This document shows positions 41,589-48,766 of a stretch of DNA of 64,000 bases, piece by piece. The DNA lies in the IMG/VR virus record IMGVR_UViG_3300033182_000678, positions 1 to 64,000 of that record; one strand, written 5' to 3'. Under the pieces are notes generated by a model. It saw only the letters and a list, made by a program, of their open reading frames with translations, searched no databases and had not been told where the DNA came from. Numbering within the stretch: position 1 is the first letter of the stretch; the number at the start of each line of letters is the position of its first letter. The translations under genes and the position numbers were made by a program. The stretch is from a virus.

Positions 41589-42908
41589 TCACTTTTTATT
41601 CACTTTTTTTGTAAATAATTTATCACCCACTTTCAATCCAGTTGCAATTGATTTCAATTTACCGTACATAACAGGTAAATCGTGATTAGATGAGATAGTT
41701 ATTTCTTTACCAGACTTTAATTTAACTTTATATACTGGTTGCTTCTCAACTGGAAAAACTTTTGTTACTTTTTTATATCCATCGTGAGTTAAAATTTCAT
41801 CACCCTCTTTTATTTTTCCAATTTCCATTTTACCATTTTCAGTTTCCACTTTATCAGTTAAAATGTGGCAACGATTTGCCTGAGATGCAGTCCATACTGG
41901 TATGTTGAACTCTCCTGCCATACCTCTCAACTCTTCATAGATATGTCCTAACTGATGTCTTTTTTCACTAAAATGTTGTGTGGATTTCATGATGTCTGCA
42001 TAATCCACAATCACTAAATCTGGTTTGAGTCCCTGCATTTCACATTGTTGTAAATGTGCAGTAAGTGTATTAACACTTGCAGTTCTTGTTGGATAATATT
42101 TTATTATCAACTCACCCTTTAACTTTGAAATCTTGTTTTGTACTTCATCTTTATAATATTGTAAGTTACCTGTTGGTTGTCCACTTACAATTGTATCATA
42201 TCTTAACCCTACATATTGTGCATTTAACTCTAATGTATAATGAATTACGGTTTTACCTTGTTTGACTGCATGTGCACCTAATGCCTGAAGAGTCCATGAC
42301 TTACCAATACCTGCTGGAGCAACAATAACACCAAGTTCACCACCTGCCAAACCACCATCCATCAAATCATTTACACTATCCCATTGTGTTGGTAAACATT
42401 CTCTTGTTTGTTTAGTTAATCTCTCTTCCAAACCTGTAATATAATCATGACCAATGTCTCTTTCTACACCTGCCTTCATTGCATTATCTATAACACCTTT
42501 TATCTCATCATACTTTTGATTATCTAATAACTCAACTGATTCCATGATGGCACTTTTGATAACTTGGTTCTTACAGAACTCAAGTGATTTTTCTTTTACA
42601 AATTCTAAATCAGGTGATTCACGATGTTGCCATGCACTTCGTAATGAATCAACAATACTCGTCTTTAGTACATCATTTTCCACATCATCAATGACAACTT
42701 TTAATGCTTCCATTGTCGGTGGGGATTTATACTTTTTAAAATAATCTATTATTGATTTTACAAGAAACTTGTTTGAATCAGAATCAAAATAACTTACTTC
42801 TAAAATGTCACCGATAGTTTTTATAAACTTCGTATCAACTATTAAAGATGTAATAATTTTACTCTGAAAAGATGTTCCATATTTAATTAAAGATTCACTC
42901 ATAACCAT
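41589..42908 (-). CDS. replicative helicase (gp41/DnaB-like) N-terminal part ending in split-intein IntN (41592-41870)
   Basis: APAGIGKS, VDYAD, WTASQANR|CHILTDKVET...SSNH. Confidence 0.93.
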   Translation of the reverse strand: MVMSESLIKYGTSFQSKIITSLIVDTKFIKTIGDILEVSYFDSDSNKFLVKSIIDYFKKYKSPPTMEALKVVIDDVENDVLKTSIVDSLRSAWQHRESPDLEFVKEKSLEFCKNQVIKSAIMESVELLDNQKYDEIKGVIDNAMKAGVERDIGHDYITGLEERLTKQTRECLPTQWDSVNDLMDGGLAGGELGVIVAPAGIGKSWTLQALGAHAVKQGKTVIHYTLELNAQYVGLRYDTIVSGQPTGNLQYYKDEVQNKISKLKGELIIKYYPTRTASVNTLTAHLQQCEMQGLKPDLVIVDYADIMKSTQHFSEKRHQLGHIYEELRGMAGEFNIPVWTASQANRCHILTDKVETENGKMEIGKIKEGDEILTHDGYKKVTKVFPVEKQPVYKVKLKSGKEITISSNHDLPVMYGKLKSIATGLKVGDKLFTKKVNKK

Positions 42909-42917
42909 TTATAATTA

Positions 42918-44048
42918 TCATTTAGTTTTCGGAAATACACGATTTATTTTATCATTATAGTTTTTTATTTCCTCGTAGTCTCCACTTTCTGTTCCCATAA
43001 ATTTTAAAATATTTTCTAAGTCAATTTTTGTTTTGTTTGATACACCATCCATGTACTTTTCAAATAAACTAATAACTTTAAACTTATCTTTTTCATGTAG
43101 GTTCTTTATACATACTCCATCAGGTGCCCACGCATAGTGAAATGAAATGTCATCAGTATTAGTTATAATACCTAAGTTTATAAATTGTTCAATGGATTCA
43201 AATATGTGAAATATATTATATGTAGATACGGTATATTGTATTCCATAATCTATATTATATTCTTTTAGTTTATTTATATTCTTTACAAAGTTATCATGTT
43301 TAAAACCAACTCTGATATACTCACCTAAATCATATAACCCATCACAAGATACTGCAATGTAAATCGTACCTTTTTCTTTTATCTTATTCCAATACTCAAG
43401 TAATGATTCTTCTTGATATTTTAATGTAGATAAGTTTGTATTGTAATGTAGGTGTAGTTTTAATTCTTTATCAGTAACAAACTTTAGGATGTCCATGTGT
43501 TCAGGCATTATCAAAGGTTCACCACCCGCAAAATATATCTTCTTAAGTTTACCTAAGTGTTTCTTTAGATTCTCCATAAAGTTATTCTCTACTTTAATAA
43601 CTTTATTTACATCAGGTGATAATCCACCCAATAACATTTCAGGTTCATACCAAGATGATGAGAAGTCATGACAACATGTTCTACATTTAAAATTACATTG
43701 ATTTGAAAATCTAATATCAATATACTGAAACTCTAATGGAACTTCACCATCAGTAGTTTTTGGTATTTCAAACTCATTATTACTTGGTTCTAAAAATCCT
43801 TGTCGTGCACTATACTCTCCTCTATCTTCTGCTAAATAACAAATATCACATAATTTATTTCTTTCTCCATTCAACATATCCATACGAAGTTTTTTCATTT
43901 CTTCTGAATTAAATACTTCACCTATGGATTCTCTGTTTAAATTATGTGAGTATATGGTTTCTGCAATACAACAAGGTTTCACATGACCTGATGGTTGTGC
44001 ATATAAATGTACAAATGGTAAGGGACAAAATGTTTTACTATTACTCAC
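42918..44048 (-). CDS. radical SAM protein with N-terminal twitch/SPASM domain
   Basis: CPLPF...PCC, CDIC, CNFKCRTC, FAGGEP, YNTN. Confidence 0.88.
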   Translation of the reverse strand: MSNSKTFCPLPFVHLYAQPSGHVKPCCIAETIYSHNLNRESIGEVFNSEEMKKLRMDMLNGERNKLCDICYLAEDRGEYSARQGFLEPSNNEFEIPKTTDGEVPLEFQYIDIRFSNQCNFKCRTCCHDFSSSWYEPEMLLGGLSPDVNKVIKVENNFMENLKKHLGKLKKIYFAGGEPLIMPEHMDILKFVTDKELKLHLHYNTNLSTLKYQEESLLEYWNKIKEKGTIYIAVSCDGLYDLGEYIRVGFKHDNFVKNINKLKEYNIDYGIQYTVSTYNIFHIFESIEQFINLGIITNTDDISFHYAWAPDGVCIKNLHEKDKFKVISLFEKYMDGVSNKTKIDLENILKFMGTESGDYEEIKNYNDKINRVFPKTK

Positions 44049-44230
44049 TCAATGTTCCCATACATATCTTGTACTTTCTTATCATAAAATTCTTTTCTCT
44101 TTTTCTCACGATATTTTTGACGAGCCTTTGCTCTTATCTCTTCTGCATTTCTTTTGTAATGTTCCATCTGCCATCTTCTTTGGGCTTCTCTCTTCTCTTT
44201 TGCAGTATGATATTTTCGTTTTCTACCCAT
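44045..44230 (-). CDS. small basic protein
   Basis: MGRKRKY..., overlap-coupled on both sides. Confidence 0.6.
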   Translation of the reverse strand: MGRKRKYHTAKEKREAQRRWQMEHYKRNAEEIRAKARQKYREKKRKEFYDKKVQDMYGNIE

Positions 44231-44688
44231 TACTCAAACCTTTGTATAGTCCCTTGTATCATTTCAGGTGGCATATTTATTTTTATATCAAATATTTTTT
44301 CTAAAAGTAATATCATTTCATTTCTTGTGATAAAGATGGTTTCAAATCGTCCTCCATACTCCTCTTGACAATGTTTTACAACTGATGGATTTTTTGTTGG
44401 TATGTCGTATTTACCCATTAGTATGTGAACTTTTTTATAATCATATAATTTATAATATTTCCAAACCTTGTGTGGAATTTTTTCACCTATACTCCCTTTT
44501 CCATTTTGATTTGTCGGGTCTACATAAAGTATATCACCATTAGGACATTTTATTTCAAAATCAATCTGACTTTTGTTACCACCACTTTCTTCAATAAAAT
44601 CTTTTATACCATTATAGTTTAAAATATTACGAAGCCAAGTTTGACCATCTACACCTGATTTGTTTGGTTGATTTTGTTTATCACCCAT
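44230..44688 (-). CDS. hypothetical protein, possibly PD-(D/E)XK-fold nuclease
   Basis: IDF...YVD..NQN..GS..EK pattern. Confidence 0.4.
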   Translation of the reverse strand: MGDKQNQPNKSGVDGQTWLRNILNYNGIKDFIEESGGNKSQIDFEIKCPNGDILYVDPTNQNGKGSIGEKIPHKVWKYYKLYDYKKVHILMGKYDIPTKNPSVVKHCQEEYGGRFETIFITRNEMILLLEKIFDIKINMPPEMIQGTIQRFE

Positions 44689-45733
44689 GTGTTTTCTCCG
44701 CCATAAAATTTAATCTATTAAATGTATTTGCTAACCAACTCGTCAAGTTTGGTAAGGCAGTATACATTTTATCTTCAAGAAACATTTTTTGAAATTTATG
44801 TTTAATCATTCTTTGGATTGGTTGTGATGTGATATTCTGTACTTTTAGTTTACTACTACCACCCATAATACCATCATCCAAATCCATTAGTCTTCTGTTC
44901 ATCAACATTTGTTCTTCTGAATTACAAATGTTTTCACATAACTTTACTTGTTTTCGTTTTTTAGATGCACTCTTTAATAAATCATTGATGGTATACTTAA
45001 CATCTTCACTTAACCATGGAAAGTTTTTGAGTAATGTTTTTAACCCTACTCCATGGACACCAGGTATACCATCTGATTTATCTCCATCTAAAACTCTATA
45101 CAATAAAAAGTTTTTAGGACTGATACCAAATTCTTCTTTGATTCGTTCTTCATCGTACATCTTCTTTTTTGTAGGTGAGTAAACTTGAATCCTTTCATCT
45201 ACTAATTGTAAGAAATCTTTATCAGTAGACATAATAGTAACTTTGTCTTTGAAGACATGTTTACTACAATAACCAATGACATCATCTGCCTCAATATTAT
45301 CTATATTGATTATGGTTAAAGGTAGACATTCAAGATACTCAACAACACGATTCAACTGATGAATCATCATCTTTTGTTCGTCTTCGCGAGTCAAAAAATC
45401 ATTTGCTCTATTCAAACGATGAGACATTTTTCTTCCCATTTTATATTCAGGAAAGATTTTCCTACGGCGGTTAGACCCACCCTTACCATCAAACACGATA
45501 ATGGTTCGGGTAGGTCTTACCATATTTATAGTGTAACCAATTGACCTTAAAAAACCAACTATTCCACCAATGTGAACCCCATCATCATTAGTAGTTGGTA
45601 TTGCTGAAAACACTCTAATAAAAGTGTTCAGACCATCTATTAGTAAAACCGAGTCGTTTGGTTCACCACTATCTATTTTACCGCCAGATTTTTTAATCTC
45701 CTCAAGTATTGATATGTATTTCTTCTTAATCAC
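44681..45733 (-). CDS. 5'-3' flap exonuclease (T4 RNase H / PolI N-terminal-like)
   Basis: LIDGLN, VFDG, YK..R, EADD, DKDFLQL, GDKSDGIPGV; GTG start inferred. Confidence 0.92.
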   Translation of the reverse strand: MIKKKYISILEEIKKSGGKIDSGEPNDSVLLIDGLNTFIRVFSAIPTTNDDGVHIGGIVGFLRSIGYTINMVRPTRTIIVFDGKGGSNRRRKIFPEYKMGRKMSHRLNRANDFLTREDEQKMMIHQLNRVVEYLECLPLTIINIDNIEADDVIGYCSKHVFKDKVTIMSTDKDFLQLVDERIQVYSPTKKKMYDEERIKEEFGISPKNFLLYRVLDGDKSDGIPGVHGVGLKTLLKNFPWLSEDVKYTINDLLKSASKKRKQVKLCENICNSEEQMLMNRRLMDLDDGIMGGSSKLKVQNITSQPIQRMIKHKFQKMFLEDKMYTALPNLTSWLANTFNRLNFMAEKTHG

Positions 45734-46823
45734 CAAGAACCTCATCTGTGAAGGTAACATCATCAATACCAAGTTTCTCTTTGTATCTTAATATAACCTT
45801 ATCACAAATGATTTGATATACATACTCTCGTAGTTCATCATTTTCGGTGATTAAATCTTCCCAATCTTTTGATTGGAATTTATGTTCTTCACCATTTTGG
45901 TCTACTAAAGTATACCATGCTCCACCAGTTTTGACTAACTTGTGTTCTTTCAGTACGGTTAACCATGCACCATAATTATCTATACCTCTATCAAAGTACA
46001 TATCATAATCTGCATGTCTCAAAGGTGGGCCTAAACGATTCTTAATAATCTGTGCCCTACACTTCATACCTAATACATTCTTACCTGTATCTTTGATTTG
46101 TCCCATATTCTTCAATCTAATTCTTGTAGATGAATGGAATGGTAATGCCTTACCACCACTTGTTGTCCAAGGGTCTCCAAACATTACTCCGAGTTTTTGT
46201 CTTAATTGATTTGTGAATACGAGTGCAATCTTTTCTCTACCAATAAGTTGAGTGATTTTTCTCATCGCCTTACTGATAATGATTGCCTTGGCAGTTGCCC
46301 AACCATCTTTATCAAAGTCTGCCTCTAATTCTACTTTAGTAGATGCGGCGGCGAGTGAGTCAACCAAGATAGTTACTAATCTATCTTTGTCACTTTCTCT
46401 AACTTTTGTTACTATTTCTTCAATTGCCTCAAAGATATCTTCTACGGTTTCTAAATGTAGATATAACATTTTATTTAAATCTAAACCAATAACTTCCATG
46501 AACTCTTGAGAAACTGAAGTTTCAGTATCTATATAGACTGCAACTCCACCTTTCTTCTGAGTCTCTGCAAGTATGTGTGCACCAAGTAGTGATTTACCAC
46601 TTGATTCTAATCCATTGATTTCTGTAATTCTACCAACTGCAATACCACCATTAGGTCTGTTGGATATTGCCAAGTCTAACATTGAAGAACCTGTAGAAAT
46701 AAATTCTCTAATGTCTGTTGGTGTGGAATCACTTCCATCTAAAAAGTATGCAACTTTATTGTCTTTAAACTTTTTATTCAGACTACTTGCCAAAGTATCG
46801 GCCAATACATCATTTACTGACAT
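45726..46823 (-). CDS. recA: RecA/UvsX recombinase
   Basis: GLESSGKS, YIDTE, VDS, FTNQLR, GGKALPFHSSTR. Confidence 0.95.
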   Translation of the reverse strand: MSVNDVLADTLASSLNKKFKDNKVAYFLDGSDSTPTDIREFISTGSSMLDLAISNRPNGGIAVGRITEINGLESSGKSLLGAHILAETQKKGGVAVYIDTETSVSQEFMEVIGLDLNKMLYLHLETVEDIFEAIEEIVTKVRESDKDRLVTILVDSLAAASTKVELEADFDKDGWATAKAIIISKAMRKITQLIGREKIALVFTNQLRQKLGVMFGDPWTTSGGKALPFHSSTRIRLKNMGQIKDTGKNVLGMKCRAQIIKNRLGPPLRHADYDMYFDRGIDNYGAWLTVLKEHKLVKTGGAWYTLVDQNGEEHKFQSKDWEDLITENDELREYVYQIICDKVILRYKEKLGIDDVTFTDEVLGD

Positions 46824-46843
46824 TCATTTTCTCCTAAGTTAAT

Positions 46844-46873
46844 AATGGGAGCCACAATATATGACTCCCATAT
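46844..46873 (-). terminator. hairpin between ssb and recA
   Basis: ATGGGAG...CTCCCAT inverted repeat. Confidence 0.5.
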
Positions 46874-46884
46874 CTTGTTATAAT

Positions 46885-47640
46885 TTACGAATTAAATAAT
46901 TCATCAAAAGCTTCTGAAGTGTCTTTCACTTTAGAAGACTCTAATTCAGAACTTGTTACGGTATCTTGAGTATCTGATTCACCATCTGATTCCTCTGATG
47001 GGTTCAACCATTCATCCAATACACCTGACAAGTCGTCATAAGATAACTCTTGATAAATCTCACGAATGTCTTGTTGTTCTTTGACTTTCTCTAAGATTTC
47101 AGGTTCGTCTGAAATTGGTGTTTGATTAGGTTTTACTCTAATCTTTGTTGTAGGGAAACTAGCTCCTGTTTCCTCTGCGGATATGAACTCAACTACAACA
47201 TCACGACCATTAACTGGGTCTGTAATATCACCATAATCAGGGTCAGCGATTACAGAAAGTAATTCTTGGTATACGGTTTTACCGAATCCCCAAAATTTTA
47301 CTCCTTGTTTCTCTTCACCTCTTACGATAACAGGTGCAAAAGTTCTCATTTTTGCCTCTAATTTACGAGCCAACTGATAGTCTTCTTTGTTACCACTTCC
47401 ACGAAGTTTCTGTGCAAACTCTTCAATCGGGTCAGGTCTTCCAAAGGATATTGGTGAAAGATATGAACGATTATTGAGATTGTAGTGGAAAAATAACTCA
47501 ATGAAAGGATTGTCTTTATTGAATGAATAAGGAACGATTCTGATTTGAGTTTTACCAGGTTGTGGTTTCCAAAGACTTGATGTTCTGTTGTTTGTTGTTT
47601 GAAGTTGATTTAACCTCTTACGAATAGCATTTAAGTCCAT
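46885..47640 (-). CDS. single-stranded DNA-binding protein (gp32-like)
   Basis: WKP..G...IRIVP, FWGFGKTVY, DITDP..GRD, acidic tail ending FDELFNS. Confidence 0.85.
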   Translation of the reverse strand: MDLNAIRKRLNQLQTTNNRTSSLWKPQPGKTQIRIVPYSFNKDNPFIELFFHYNLNNRSYLSPISFGRPDPIEEFAQKLRGSGNKEDYQLARKLEAKMRTFAPVIVRGEEKQGVKFWGFGKTVYQELLSVIADPDYGDITDPVNGRDVVVEFISAEETGASFPTTKIRVKPNQTPISDEPEILEKVKEQQDIREIYQELSYDDLSGVLDEWLNPSEESDGESDTQDTVTSSELESSKVKDTSEAFDELFNS

Positions 47641-47755
47641 TGTTTATCTCCTATTTGTTAATTTATTAATTGTTAATTAGTATTCAAGTATAACCTTGAT
47701 ACAATAATATATATCATATATATTTGTAAAAAACGGATTTATTTTCATTATTTGC

Positions 47756-47827
47756 AAAAAAAATGGTCATCTTGTTTTTAAGTTTGTAAATAAGGTGGAA
47801 ACTAAAAATCGTGTGACCATTTTTTTT
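47756..47827 (-). terminator. long hairpin terminator after the candidate ncRNA
   Basis: 14-bp perfect inverted repeat AAAAAAAATGGTCA / TGACCATTTTTTTT with additional internal pairing. Confidence 0.7.
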
Positions 47828-47840
47828 AAGTTTATGAAAT

Positions 47841-48240
47841 CTATGGGGATGTAGGACTAACGATTACCTACAACTTGAAGCTTGGATTTTTTATACCTTG
47901 TACCTAACACCCATCAGTTACGATGATTCTTCTCAAGATGGTTAATCTCATTGAAGTGAGTACAACCTCTGTGTTATTACCTTATCTCTCCAAGATTAGA
48001 TTATTCGGTCATAAAGTGGGATTTCAGTTTTACCCTTACCCACAACAAGGTCAATAGAATCGTTTCTATTATAGTTTTATCTTCAAGTACATTAAATGAT
48101 TGATGTCTCAACTACCGAAATTATTTTAACCTCAGTAGGTTCACCACAAACTCATTTCAGATTACCTTATGGGCTTCTAAAGTCTACCCATTATTCGGTC
48201 AATCCCATACAGAGTTAATTACTCTCTGTACTTTCTGATT
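47841..48240 (-). ncRNA. candidate large structured ncRNA (about 400 nt, family unassigned)
   Basis: No ORF of 60 aa or more; many hairpins, one with G-U pairs that only work on the minus strand; long-range helices; duplicated motifs; terminator downstream. Confidence 0.7.
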
Positions 48241-48358
48241 TCAAATTTTCAAAAAACTAATTTACTTAAGACCAATTAAGTAAGTTATGTTTATATATAT
48301 ATTGGAAAAATCCCAAACCGTATTTTTTTTTAATTTTTTTTTATTTTTTTTTATTTTT

Positions 48359-48766
48359 TTATTTTAACCATTCATTAACATCAATAATAGAATGAATCTT
48401 TGTAGGAATCTTTGTTAATCCATTTTCATTTGTTAATAATAGTGTGTTCTGAAACTCATCCCAATCAACCATAAACTTCTTATCTAAGATTCCATTATTC
48501 TTTGAACGAATAACTTCATTCAATGCATTGATTGTGTAGAGTGTATTTGATTGTTTCTTTCTATGAAGAGATATAGTATCTATTGTTGGTTCTTGAAAGT
48601 CTTCATTGAATTCCACATTGTAAGTGCATAACAATTGTGATGGGTCATTTACATCTGTAAAGACATAAACCTTATCATATAAAATTTTATTACAAGAAAC
48701 TATGATATCAATGGATTCATTTAGTTTGTCTTGTTTAGTGAATGTACATAGTAATTGAGTCCTCAT
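48359..48766 (-). CDS. hypothetical phage protein
   Basis: MRTQLLCTF...HRKKQSNTLYTINALN; start inferred at 48766. Confidence 0.7.
   Translation of the reverse strand: MRTQLLCTFTKQDKLNESIDIIVSCNKILYDKVYVFTDVNDPSQLLCTYNVEFNEDFQEPTIDTISLHRKKQSNTLYTINALNEVIRSKNNGILDKKFMVDWDEFQNTLLLTNENGLTKIPTKIHSIIDVNEWLK

What the first reader, a model, noticed from the sequence alone, without database searches (positions are those of the whole stretch)
47841..48240. Large structured ncRNA candidate beside ssb
Seen on the minus strand: hairpins UACAGAG/CUCUGUA, AUGGG/CCCAU, CUACUGAGGUUA/UAAUUUCGGUAG (3 G-U), AAUAGAA/UUCUAUU, GUGGG/CCCAC, GUAGG/CCUAC; nested long-range helices 48081-88/47873-80 and 48045-51/47895-901; a 5'/3' closing helix 48202-09/47841-50; a long U-tailed hairpin downstream. 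It fills the only large gap in a densely packed genome and does not match tRNA, tmRNA or RNase P signatures. It may belong with large ornate phage RNAs (ROOL/GOLLD class) or be new.
Basis: partly seen in the sequence, partly recalled or inferred. Interest (0 to 1): 0.88.

Follow-up and report, generated by a model that had tools for sequence, protein, structure and literature searches.

The report
Nested two-core manA phage RNA
The gene-free stretch before the phage's single-strand DNA-binding protein gene encodes a real, elaborately folded RNA of about 410 bases that belongs to the known marine-phage "manA" RNA family but carries a second manA-like core built into the first, a layout not described in the papers I could read.

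Summary
It is not a new class. Rfam's manA model (RF01745) scores 70.3 bits (threshold 55.2) on 47846-48044, and the 5' half matches model positions 1-151. The outer domain is a complete manA scaffold. Its penultimate helix (P8) has become a three-way junction that carries a second manA-like core. The two loops I equate with a reported manA loop-loop contact (L8 and L9) covary here. The RNA is preceded by a boxA-like motif and followed by a conserved, covarying terminator hairpin. I found no covarying antiterminator. RNA-library contigs from four studies hold it. My reading is a stand-alone phage RNA gene, probably self-associating like the manA RNAs that a 2026 preprint shows forming RNA-only cages in vitro, rather than a riboswitch for ssb. 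Its function in infection is unknown. This scan has already reported the same kind of two-core manA RNA on other genomes.

The parts
48245..48258 (-). boxA-like motif AGUUUUUUGAAAAU (AGUUCUUUGACAAU in some relatives), immediately 5' of the folded RNA
   Evidence: Conserved as AGTTYTTTGAMAAT in all 21 aligned relatives. Also present as GTTCTTTGAAA before the distant element in L085. The exact 14-mer of relatives L026/L035 lies 226 and 51 nt upstream of a 16S gene in 2 of 121 bacterial genome hits. The resemblance to rRNA-leader boxA is otherwise from memory.
48237..48243 (-). P0 5' strand UGAAAUC, pairs with 47835-47841
   Evidence: Each relative's own 5' and 3' flanks form a 5-10 bp A/U-rich duplex: -8.0 kcal/mol against -6.4 for flanks taken from different relatives, permutation p < 0.0002. 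Relatedness of the sequences inflates this test.
48207..48231 (-). P1 hairpin (GUACAGA/UCUGUAU), equals the first hairpin of the manA model
   Evidence: Three pairs with changes on both sides (helix 1). Aligned to model positions 1-26.
48202..48206 (-). P2 5' strand GGGAU, pairs with AUCCC at 47846-47850 and closes the whole outer domain
   Evidence: 100% paired. GGAAU/AUUCC in three relatives (helix 2). Equals the model's GGGaG/CuCCC helix.
48161..48200 (-). Outer P3 with the manA signature internal loop GACCGAAUAA ... AUAAGGUAAU
   Evidence: (helices 3, 4).
48094..48157 (-). Outer P4 junction. It holds P5 (loop GUGGUG, 48142-48147), the variable P6 arm (48112-48138) and P7 (GUUGA/UCAAU, loop GACA).
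   Evidence: helices 5-7 (all pairs of helices 5 and 7, 3 of 4 in helix 6, change on both sides). The P6 arm folds in every relative. GUGGUG is identical to the model consensus.
48081..48088 (-). Base of outer P8, 5' strand ACUUGAAG, pairs with CUUCAAGU at 47873-47880
   Evidence: Six of 8 pairs change on both sides (helix 8). Aligned to the 5' and 3' strands of the model's 'agcgacg/cgucgcu' helix.
48053..48070 (-). Apical hairpin of P8 (AAUAGAA/UUCUAUU). Its loop L8, AACGAUU at 48058-48064, is complementary to L9.
   Evidence: Forms in every relative with covarying stems. Aligned to the model's inner P8 hairpin. L8-L9 covariation.
47896..48050 (-). Inner manA-like core. It comprises the closing helix CCUUG/CAAGG, the hairpin GUGGG/CCCAC (48016-48043), a second GACCGAAUAA...AUAAGGUAAU helix (47976-48010) and a junction UAACAC/GUGUUA with three hairpins (loops GGUUGUA, UUAACCAUC, GUAACU).
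   Evidence: helices 9-16. This core plus the outer 3' end is what Rfam's manA model hits.
47846..48044 (-). Rfam manA (RF01745) hit
   Evidence: 70.3 bits against a gathering score of 55.2, E = 7.5e-16, model positions 1-192.
47851..47871 (-). Outer P9 hairpin GUAGG/CCUAC, with loop L9 (AAUCGUU, 47859-47865)
   Evidence: helix 17. L8-L9 loop-loop helix: 88% paired against 17-60% when slid; 17 cells with changes on both sides against 0-5.
47835..47841 (-). P0 3' strand GAUUUCA
47756..47827 (-). Two-tier terminator hairpin. The basal stem is AAAAAAAAUGGUCA/UGACCAUUUUUUUU, the upper stem UUUUUAGUUU/AAACUUAAAAA, and the apical loop contains CCAC. A run of U follows.
   Evidence: The same fold followed by a run of 5-10 U appears in all 19 sequences. 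Basal arms covary: own arms -9.1 kcal/mol against -4.2 for arms from different relatives, p < 0.0002. The motif TTTAGTYTCCAC occurs only in loci that carry the RNA.
46885..47640 (-). Downstream gene: T4 gp32-type single-strand DNA-binding protein (context, not part of the RNA)
   Evidence: PHROG 1192, E = 2.3e-18.

Best explanation
The stretch is a gene for a non-coding RNA of the manA family in a two-core form. It runs from at or before 48243 to 47835, about 410 nt, and reaches about 490 nt if the terminator hairpin stays attached.

Shown:
- The outer domain carries every element of the 192-position manA model.
- Helix P8 of that domain is opened into a three-way junction. One arm keeps the usual P8 loop (L8). 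The other arm is a second manA-like core.
- L8 and L9 are complementary, and the complementarity is kept by compensatory changes.
- The RNA is followed by a conserved, covarying intrinsic terminator.
- A boxA-like motif precedes it.

Inferred:
- It is transcribed as its own unit, with Nus-factor type antitermination carrying the polymerase through the untranslated, highly folded RNA, and it ends at the terminator.
- It acts as a folded RNA particle whose conserved loops (L8-L9; GUGGUG with an ACCA or CCAC loop) bind each other, within one chain or between chains. A 2026 preprint shows loop-loop contacts of this kind in the 8-, 10- and 60-subunit assemblies that single-core manA RNAs form in vitro.
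- On this reading the two-core form is a covalent pair of subunits in which each core keeps one partner of a loop-loop contact.

What the particle does in infection is not known.
For: - Family: manA hit of 70.3 bits against a threshold of 55.2. The 5' half alone matches model positions 1-151 at 22.2 bits, E = 5e-4, with hairpin, GGGAU, GACCGAAUAA/UAAGGUAAU, the GUGGUG loop, the P8 base and the P8 apical hairpin in model order.
- Structure: 59 of 89 pairs have compensatory changes; 98.5% paired against about 40% when slid.
- L8-L9: AACGAUU/AAUCGUU, GAUGAUU/AAUCAUU, GCGAUU/AAUCGC, GCA/UGC. 88% paired against 17-60% when slid. By eye, ACCGAUU/AAUUGGU in the distant L085.
- Rfam's consensus itself shows aCUgu/acAgu and UGGU/ACCA loop complementarity. 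[quoted passage not shown]
- Own unit: the terminator is present in all 19 sequences and covaries. There is no covarying antiterminator (p = 0.16). A conserved promoter-like A/T block lies between the terminator and the ssb start. The same two-core RNA with a boxA-like motif follows an array of 8 tRNA genes and precedes an unrelated 84-aa ORF in L085.
- Expression: contigs of four RNA libraries from four studies hold parts of 47813-48204, at word depths up to 825 and 568.
Against: - No experiment or raw-read evidence here defines the RNA's ends, so a leader transcript of ssb is not excluded.
- In this clade the element always sits directly upstream of ssb on the same strand, which is what a cis-regulator would show.
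- Self-assembly is known only in vitro, for single-core manA RNAs, from one preprint. My mapping of helices to its L5-L9 names is inferred by counting helices, not read from its figures.
- The GUGGUG/ACCA and GUGG/CCAC partners are invariant, so they cannot be tested by covariation.
- boxA identity rests on resemblance and on 2 of 121 genome hits.
- In relative L002 the base helix of P8 is broken.
Confidence: 0.55

Rival explanations
1. A cis-regulatory riboswitch with two cooperating manA aptamers controls ssb transcription. Ligand binding decides whether the polymerase stops at the terminator hairpin at 47827-47756.
For: - manA was proposed as a riboswitch candidate located in 5' UTRs of varied genes (PMC2864571).
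- The element is always upstream of ssb on the same strand in this clade.
- An intrinsic terminator follows within about 10 nt of the folded RNA's 3' end (P0 3' strand; ~20 nt after P2).
- Terminated riboswitch leaders are typically abundant, which would fit.
Against: - No covarying alternative pairing links the RNA's 3' end to the terminator's 5' arm: own pairs -2.9 kcal/mol against -2.7 for pairs from different relatives, p = 0.16. The terminator's own arms give p < 0.0002.
- A conserved promoter-like block lies between the terminator and the ssb start.
- The same RNA sits behind tRNA genes and before an unrelated ORF in L085.
- No ligand is reported in the papers I searched, 16 years after the motif's description.
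- The family forms RNA-only cages in vitro.
Confidence: 0.2
2. The RNA is a processed 5' leader of the ssb mRNA. It stabilises the message or serves as an operator for the ssb protein, by analogy with the structured leader through which T4 gp32 represses its own translation (textbook knowledge).
For: Its position directly before a gp32-type gene. The leader between the terminator and the ATG is A/U-rich and partly conserved.
Against: - A terminator with a U-run separates the RNA from the leader.
- manA-type RNAs occur before many unrelated genes and among tRNA genes (L085).
- ssb relatives at 76% identity or less, and one at 83%, lack the element.
Confidence: 0.1
3. It is a member of the ROOL or GOLLD families, or a wholly new RNA class.
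For: Size, ornate nested fold and phage origin.
Against: No ROOL or GOLLD model matches, even at E up to 10 in the local search. manA matches above threshold, and its model accounts for all of the outer domain.
Confidence: 0.02

Closest known systems
manA RNA motif (Rfam RF01745; Weinberg et al. 2010, PMC2864571)
   Same: - Signature internal loop UGAAUAA/UAAGG.
- GGGaG/CuCCC closing helix.
- Junction of three hairpins, one with the GUGGUG loop.
- P8 and P9 hairpins with complementary loops.
- Marine phage origin.
- Scores above the family threshold.
   Different: - About 410 nt instead of about 190.
- P8 is a three-way junction that carries a second manA-like core (48050-47896).
- The outer L7 loop is GACA rather than ACCA. 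An ACCA loop sits instead on the inner core, whose L5 is GGUUGUA rather than GUGGUG.
- An extra outermost helix P0, a boxA-like motif and a conserved terminator hairpin accompany it.
- Divergent relatives (L084, L085, L087) fall below Rfam's threshold.
[quoted passage not shown]
Single-core manA RNAs that form RNA-only assemblies of 8, 10 and 60 subunits in vitro (Ren et al. 2026, bioRxiv 10.64898/2026.07.01.735769)
   Same: Same family. By my helix count, the loops named there as contacts between subunits (L5-L7', L8-L9') correspond to complementary loops here, and L8-L9 covaries in nature.
   Different: - Those RNAs are under 200 nt and have one core.
- No tandem, nested or fused form is mentioned.
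- Assembly of the two-core RNA is untested.
- Here one chain holds two cores, and the loop partners are divided between them.
Tandem-aptamer riboswitches such as the glycine riboswitch (review PMC9481103)
   Same: Two homologous ligand-binding-type folds in one transcript.
   Different: The cores here are nested, not side by side. No expression platform was found. manA is not among the tandem architectures reviewed.
ROOL, GOLLD and OLE RNAs (Nature 2025, PMC12286853)
   Same: Large ornate RNAs, ROOL and GOLLD being often phage-borne and found near tRNA genes (from memory), that form RNA-only homo-oligomers.
   Different: No sequence or structure-model match. This RNA is much smaller and belongs to a different family.

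Membership tests
manA RNA (RF01745) | Covariance-model score at or above Rfam's gathering score (55.2 bits) | tested here: met
   70.3 bits, E = 7.5e-16, at 47846-48044. Relative L092 scores 73.4 bits.
manA RNA (RF01745) | One contiguous domain collinear with the whole 192-position model | tested here: not met
   The outer domain matches positions 1-151 (48230-48052, 22.2 bits), and its 3' end supplies about positions 152-192 (47880-47846). The 155-nt inner core plus linkers (~170 nt) separates the two pieces. The above-threshold hit is a composite of the inner core and the outer 3' end.
manA RNA (RF01745) | Conserved internal loop (G)aCUGAAUAA ... UAAgGu in P3 | tested here: met
   GACCGAAUAA ... 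AUAAGGUAAU is present twice, at 48200-48161 and 48010-47976, and is nearly invariant in relatives.
manA RNA (RF01745) | Junction of three hairpins with a GUGGUG loop and a uaACCA loop | tested here: inconclusive
   The outer junction has GUGGUG, but its third loop is GACA. The inner junction has GGUUGUA, UUAACCAUC and GUAACU. Each core therefore holds part of the pair.
manA RNA (RF01745) | Complementary loops of the last two hairpins (consensus aCUgu / acAgu) | tested here: met
   AACGAUU (48064-48058) pairs with AAUCGUU (47865-47859). Compensatory variants occur in relatives.
Self-assembling manA particles (Ren et al. 2026 preprint) | Formation of discrete RNA-only oligomers | not testable with these tools
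   Only loop complementarity could be examined. Testing assembly needs SEC, mass photometry or cryo-EM.
Riboswitch (cis-regulatory, transcription-terminating) | Expression platform: pairing of the aptamer's 3' part with the terminator that excludes the terminator stem | tested here: not met
   No advantage of each relative's own pairing for the RNA's 3' end against the terminator's 5' arm (p = 0.16). The positive control gives p < 0.0002.
Riboswitch (cis-regulatory, transcription-terminating) | Consistent position in the 5' UTR of the regulated gene | tested here: inconclusive
   It lies upstream of ssb in about 40 loci. It is separated from ssb by a terminator and a promoter-like block. In L085 it is not before ssb.
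Riboswitch (cis-regulatory, transcription-terminating) | Specific ligand binding | not testable with these tools
   No ligand for manA is reported in the papers searched.
ROOL / GOLLD | Match to the Rfam models of these families | tested here: not met
   No match at the gathering threshold in the window, nor at E up to 10 in 47400-48700.
Intrinsic (Rho-independent) terminator | Stable hairpin followed directly by a run of U | tested here: met
   A two-tier hairpin of -14 to -24 kcal/mol followed by a run of 5-10 U in all 19 sequences. The basal stem covaries. The simple scanner missed it because its loop and G+C rules do not fit.
rRNA-type boxA antitermination site | boxA consensus placed shortly after the promoter of an untranslated transcript | tested here: inconclusive
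   AGTTYTTTGAMAAT is conserved 5' of the RNA and is also present in L085. The exact 14-mer lies upstream of 16S in 2 of 121 bacterial hits, where about 0.05 would be expected by chance. The host and its boxA are unknown.

The most novel reading that the evidence does not exclude
The two-core RNA is a natural single-chain pair of manA subunits whose loop partners have been divided between the cores. The outer GUGGUG would pair with the inner ACCA or with the terminator-loop CCAC, and L8 with L9. It would then assemble in infected marine bacteria into RNA-only particles of a geometry different from the single-core cages. It would be made in large amounts behind a borrowed rRNA-type antitermination signal. 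That would be the first evidence from natural sequence variation that manA's assembly contacts are under selection in vivo.
Probability: 0.3. Interest if true: 0.8.

Novelty: new variant of a known kind. Interest (0 to 1): 0.58.

Why it matters
manA has been an orphan RNA since 2010. In 2026 a preprint reported that it builds capsid-like RNA-only cages in vitro, but its biological role is unknown. This clade offers three things:

- A natural two-core variant with clean covariation for every helix.
- Covariation for a loop-loop contact that, by my helix mapping, matches one the cryo-EM work describes between subunits. This suggests the contact is selected in nature.
- Context that argues for a stand-alone, strongly made RNA rather than a riboswitch: a boxA-like signal, its own terminator with a conserved loop, presence among tRNA genes elsewhere, and presence in RNA-library contigs.

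It gives structural biologists a defined construct, and compensatory L8/L9 mutants, to test whether the contact forms within one chain or between chains. It also shows that Rfam's manA model misses or only half-covers such forms.

Tried and rejected
- blastn of the intergenic region against 50,697 phage records found no match. The phage is far from isolates: the best UvsX match is 56%, to Microcystis phage Mel-JY01.
- No tRNA or tmRNA gene in the window.
- The sigma-70 promoter scan was not above shuffles, and the terminator scanner found nothing because of its loop and G+C rules. I could not place the promoter. TTGACA within the boxA-like motif cannot be a -35 element for this RNA, because the covarying P1 and P0 would then lie upstream of the start.
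- The pattern GACCGAATAA-N170-200-GACCGAATAA also pulled in three chance loci in coding repeats (L083, L088, L089).
- ssb relatives at 76% identity or less carry no manA upstream (nhmmer; Rfam).
- Read laying: no contig covered the flanking ORFs between 47394 and 47812 or above 48204. Contig ends (47844, 47813, 48204) do not define RNA ends.
- A literature search for boxA strings returned only primers.
- A search of the 2010 supplement for 'modular' or SUBFAM annotation of manA gave nothing usable. The stored alignment file is cut, so I could not check whether two-core forms were already in it.
- The weak Rfam match to DUF2693 RNA (E = 0.74) is shared only through the boxA-like start, so I did not pursue it.
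- The GUGGUG/ACCA and GUGG/CCAC pairings are invariant and therefore untestable by covariation.

Full report
**What is there.**
A single-sequence fold recovers the nested layout, but only modestly better than shuffles (-94.8 kcal/mol, z = -2.16). The case therefore rests on comparison with relatives.

**Relatives.**
- The window is part of an 80-kb IMG/VR record, estimated 42% complete.
- The phage is a distant T4-like virus of about 33% G+C. Its UvsX is at best 56% identical to that of an isolate, Microcystis phage Mel-JY01.
- The ssb protein has more than 595 relatives in IMG/VR.
- Nearly all loci with about 78% or more ssb identity and enough upstream DNA carry the whole roughly 500-nt element, at 70-97% nucleotide identity. 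So do L077 (68% ssb identity) and, in diverged form, L087/L091 (found by the repeat pattern search).
- Relatives at 76% identity or less, and L027, do not carry it.

**Structure and covariation.**
On alignment A1 (window plus 24 distinct sequences), RNAalifold returns the nested structure: 93 pairs, 59 of them with compensatory changes. For the 89 pairs I retained:
- 98.5% of cells pair, against 37-43% when the 3' partners are slid by 1-3 columns.
- 59 pairs change on both sides, against 8-20 in the slid controls.
- 0 of 500 column shuffles reach the observed covariation score.

The two arms that align poorly (P6 and the apical part of P8) fold as hairpins of different sequence in every relative. 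Invariant G-U pairs show that the minus strand is the RNA strand. An additional outermost helix, P0 (UGAAAUC at 48243-37 with GAUUUCA at 47841-35), is supported by each relative's own flanks pairing better than flanks from different relatives (-8.0 against -6.4 kcal/mol, p < 0.0002). Relatedness of the sequences inflates that test.

**Identity.**
- Rfam's manA model (RF01745) matches 47846-48044 at 70.3 bits, above the gathering score of 55.2, with E = 7.5e-16. In that alignment the model's outer helix and the 5' strand of its penultimate helix are missing.
- Searching the 5' half alone gives a 3'-truncated manA match to model positions 1-151 (22.2 bits, E = 5e-4). It aligns, in model order: the first hairpin, GGGAU, GACCGAAUAA/UAAGGUAAU, the GUGGUG loop, the variable arm, the third hairpin, the junction's closing strand, ACUUGAAG (5' strand of P8) and the hairpin AAUAGAA-ACGA-UUCUAUU (apical P8).
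- Together, which places CUUCAAGU, the GUAGG...CCUAC hairpin and the 3' tail at positions about 152-192 (AUCCC, which I read as the 3' strand of the model's outer helix, is left unaligned there), this shows that the outer domain is a complete manA.
- The inner core (48050-47896) is an insertion on the 3' side of the apical P8 hairpin, so P8 becomes a three-way junction. The inner core consists of the closing helix CCUUG/CAAGG, the hairpin GUGGG/CCCAC, a second signature helix and a three-hairpin junction.
- The above-threshold Rfam hit is therefore a composite of the inner core and the outer 3' end.
- No ROOL, GOLLD, tRNA, tmRNA or RNase P model matches.

**Loop-loop contacts.**
- Rfam's consensus already shows two complementary loop pairs: UGGU/ACCA in the first and third junction hairpins, and aCUgu/acAgu in the last two hairpins.
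- A 2026 preprint (Ren et al., bioRxiv 10.64898/2026.07.01.735769) reports that single-core manA RNAs form assemblies of 8, 10 and 60 subunits in vitro. These are held by kissing loops L5-L7', L8-L9' and L3-L8' and a GNRA contact L6-P6'.
- Counting helices, with the GNRA loop on the middle junction hairpin, makes those loop names fit the consensus. This mapping is my inference.
- In this RNA, L8 (AACGAUU, 48064-58) and L9 (AAUCGUU, 47865-59) are complementary, and relatives keep the pairing with GAUGAUU/AAUCAUU, GCGAUU/AAUCGC, GCGA/UCGC and GCA/UGC (own loops -5.5 against -3.7 kcal/mol for loops from different relatives, p < 0.0002).
- On A1 the seven-pair loop-loop helix is 88% paired, against 17-60% when slid, with 17 cells changed on both sides against 0-5.
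- The distant L085 has ACCGAUU/AAUUGGU at the same places (by eye).
- The other pair is divided between the cores. The outer core keeps GUGGUG but has GACA where ACCA would be. The inner core has UUAACCAUC and its own GGUU/AACU pair. These loops are invariant, so covariation cannot test them.
- Sequence alone cannot say whether any of these contacts forms within one chain or between chains.

**Flanks.**
- 5' of P0 lies a conserved AGTTYTTTGAMAAT. It also precedes the divergent element in L085 (GTTCTTTGAAA).
The exact 14-mer of L026/L035 lies 226 and 51 nt upstream of a 16S gene in 2 of 121 bacterial genome hits, where chance would give about 0.05. This is weak support only.
- 3' of the RNA, all 19 aligned sequences fold into the same two-tier hairpin followed by a run of 5-10 U. 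Its basal arms covary (own arms -9.1 against -4.2 kcal/mol, p < 0.0002).
- The upper part of that hairpin (UUUAGUYUCCAC) is conserved and occurs only where the RNA occurs.
- The same test finds no covarying pairing between the RNA's 3' end and the terminator's 5' arm (p = 0.16). There is thus no sign of an antiterminator.
- A conserved promoter-like A/T block and a small hairpin lie between the terminator and the ssb start.

**Expression.**
Contigs of four RNA libraries from four studies (marine, aquatic, salt marsh and seawater) hold parts of 47813-48204. Most come from relatives 88-95% alike, at word depths up to 825 and 568. One 346-nt contig spans most of the RNA. Contigs cannot give ends, strand or level, and the missing cover on the flanks is not evidence.

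**Interpretation.**
I read this as a stand-alone gene for a two-core manA RNA that probably acts through the self-association typical of the family (confidence 0.55).

| Reading | Confidence |
|---|---|
| Stand-alone two-core manA RNA gene | 0.55 |
| Two-aptamer riboswitch for ssb | 0.2 |
| ssb leader or operator | 0.1 |
| ROOL/GOLLD member or new class | 0.02 |

- That it is a manA-family structured RNA is near certain.
- That it is not a classical terminator riboswitch is favoured by four things: the negative antiterminator test, the promoter-like block before ssb, the tRNA-array context of L085, and the absence of a ligand after 16 years.
- The biological role is unknown.

**Novelty.**
None of the papers I could search describes a nested or fused double manA. 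These are the 2010 description, the tandem-riboswitch review, the 2026 preprint and the few others that mention manA. [quoted passage not shown] I could not read the whole 2010 alignment. This scan has already reported the same kind of two-core manA RNA, also upstream of ssb, on other genomes. I class it as a new variant of a known kind.

Noticed in passing
L002:818-1317 (relative with 98% ssb identity): The base helix of P8 is broken. The 5' strand AUCUUCUG is the L015 type, while the 3' strand CUUCAAGU is the window type. This looks like a recombinant or a chimeric assembly of two strains on a 4.9-kb contig.
   Followed up: no
L087:6478-6975 (-), also L091: This is a divergent two-core element upstream of an ssb gene. 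The first junction loop AUAGUGG is complementary over 7 nt to the terminator's apical loop CCACUAU, and the inner core has no ACCA loop. In the window, only GUGG/CCAC (4 nt) can pair in this way. This hints that the conserved terminator loop is a binding partner of L5. The minimum-free-energy fold, however, puts GUGG in a stem.
   Followed up: partly
L085:3320-3700: A two-core manA-like RNA with a boxA-like GTTCTTTGAAA sits directly after an array of 8 tRNA genes and before an unrelated 84-aa ORF. It scores below Rfam's manA threshold.
   Followed up: partly
window 47641-47755 (-): The ssb leader after the terminator holds a conserved block (GATATATATTATTGT) and a hairpin, AUCAAG-GUUAUA-CUUGA(A/U), kept in most relatives. 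It may be the ssb promoter or an operator.
   Followed up: no
window 48262-48360 (-): After the stop of the upstream ORF come a long A-rich tract, a conserved TTTTGGGATTTT...TATATATATAAA block, and a hairpin of variable sequence followed by the U-run that opens the boxA-like motif. This may be the upstream gene's terminator, the RNA's promoter, or both. I could not place the start site.
   Followed up: partly
window 48167-48257 (-): A weak Rfam match to DUF2693 RNA (14.9 bits, E = 0.74). Its consensus begins with the same boxA-like GaUCUUUGACA. Other phage-associated RNAs may share this 5' signal.
   Followed up: no
window 41589-47640 (-): A T4-type replication and recombination block lies downstream: ssb, a UvsX-like recombinase, an exonuclease and a DnaB-like helicase. 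The nearest isolate by UvsX is only 56% identical, so the phage lineage is uncultured.
   Followed up: partly
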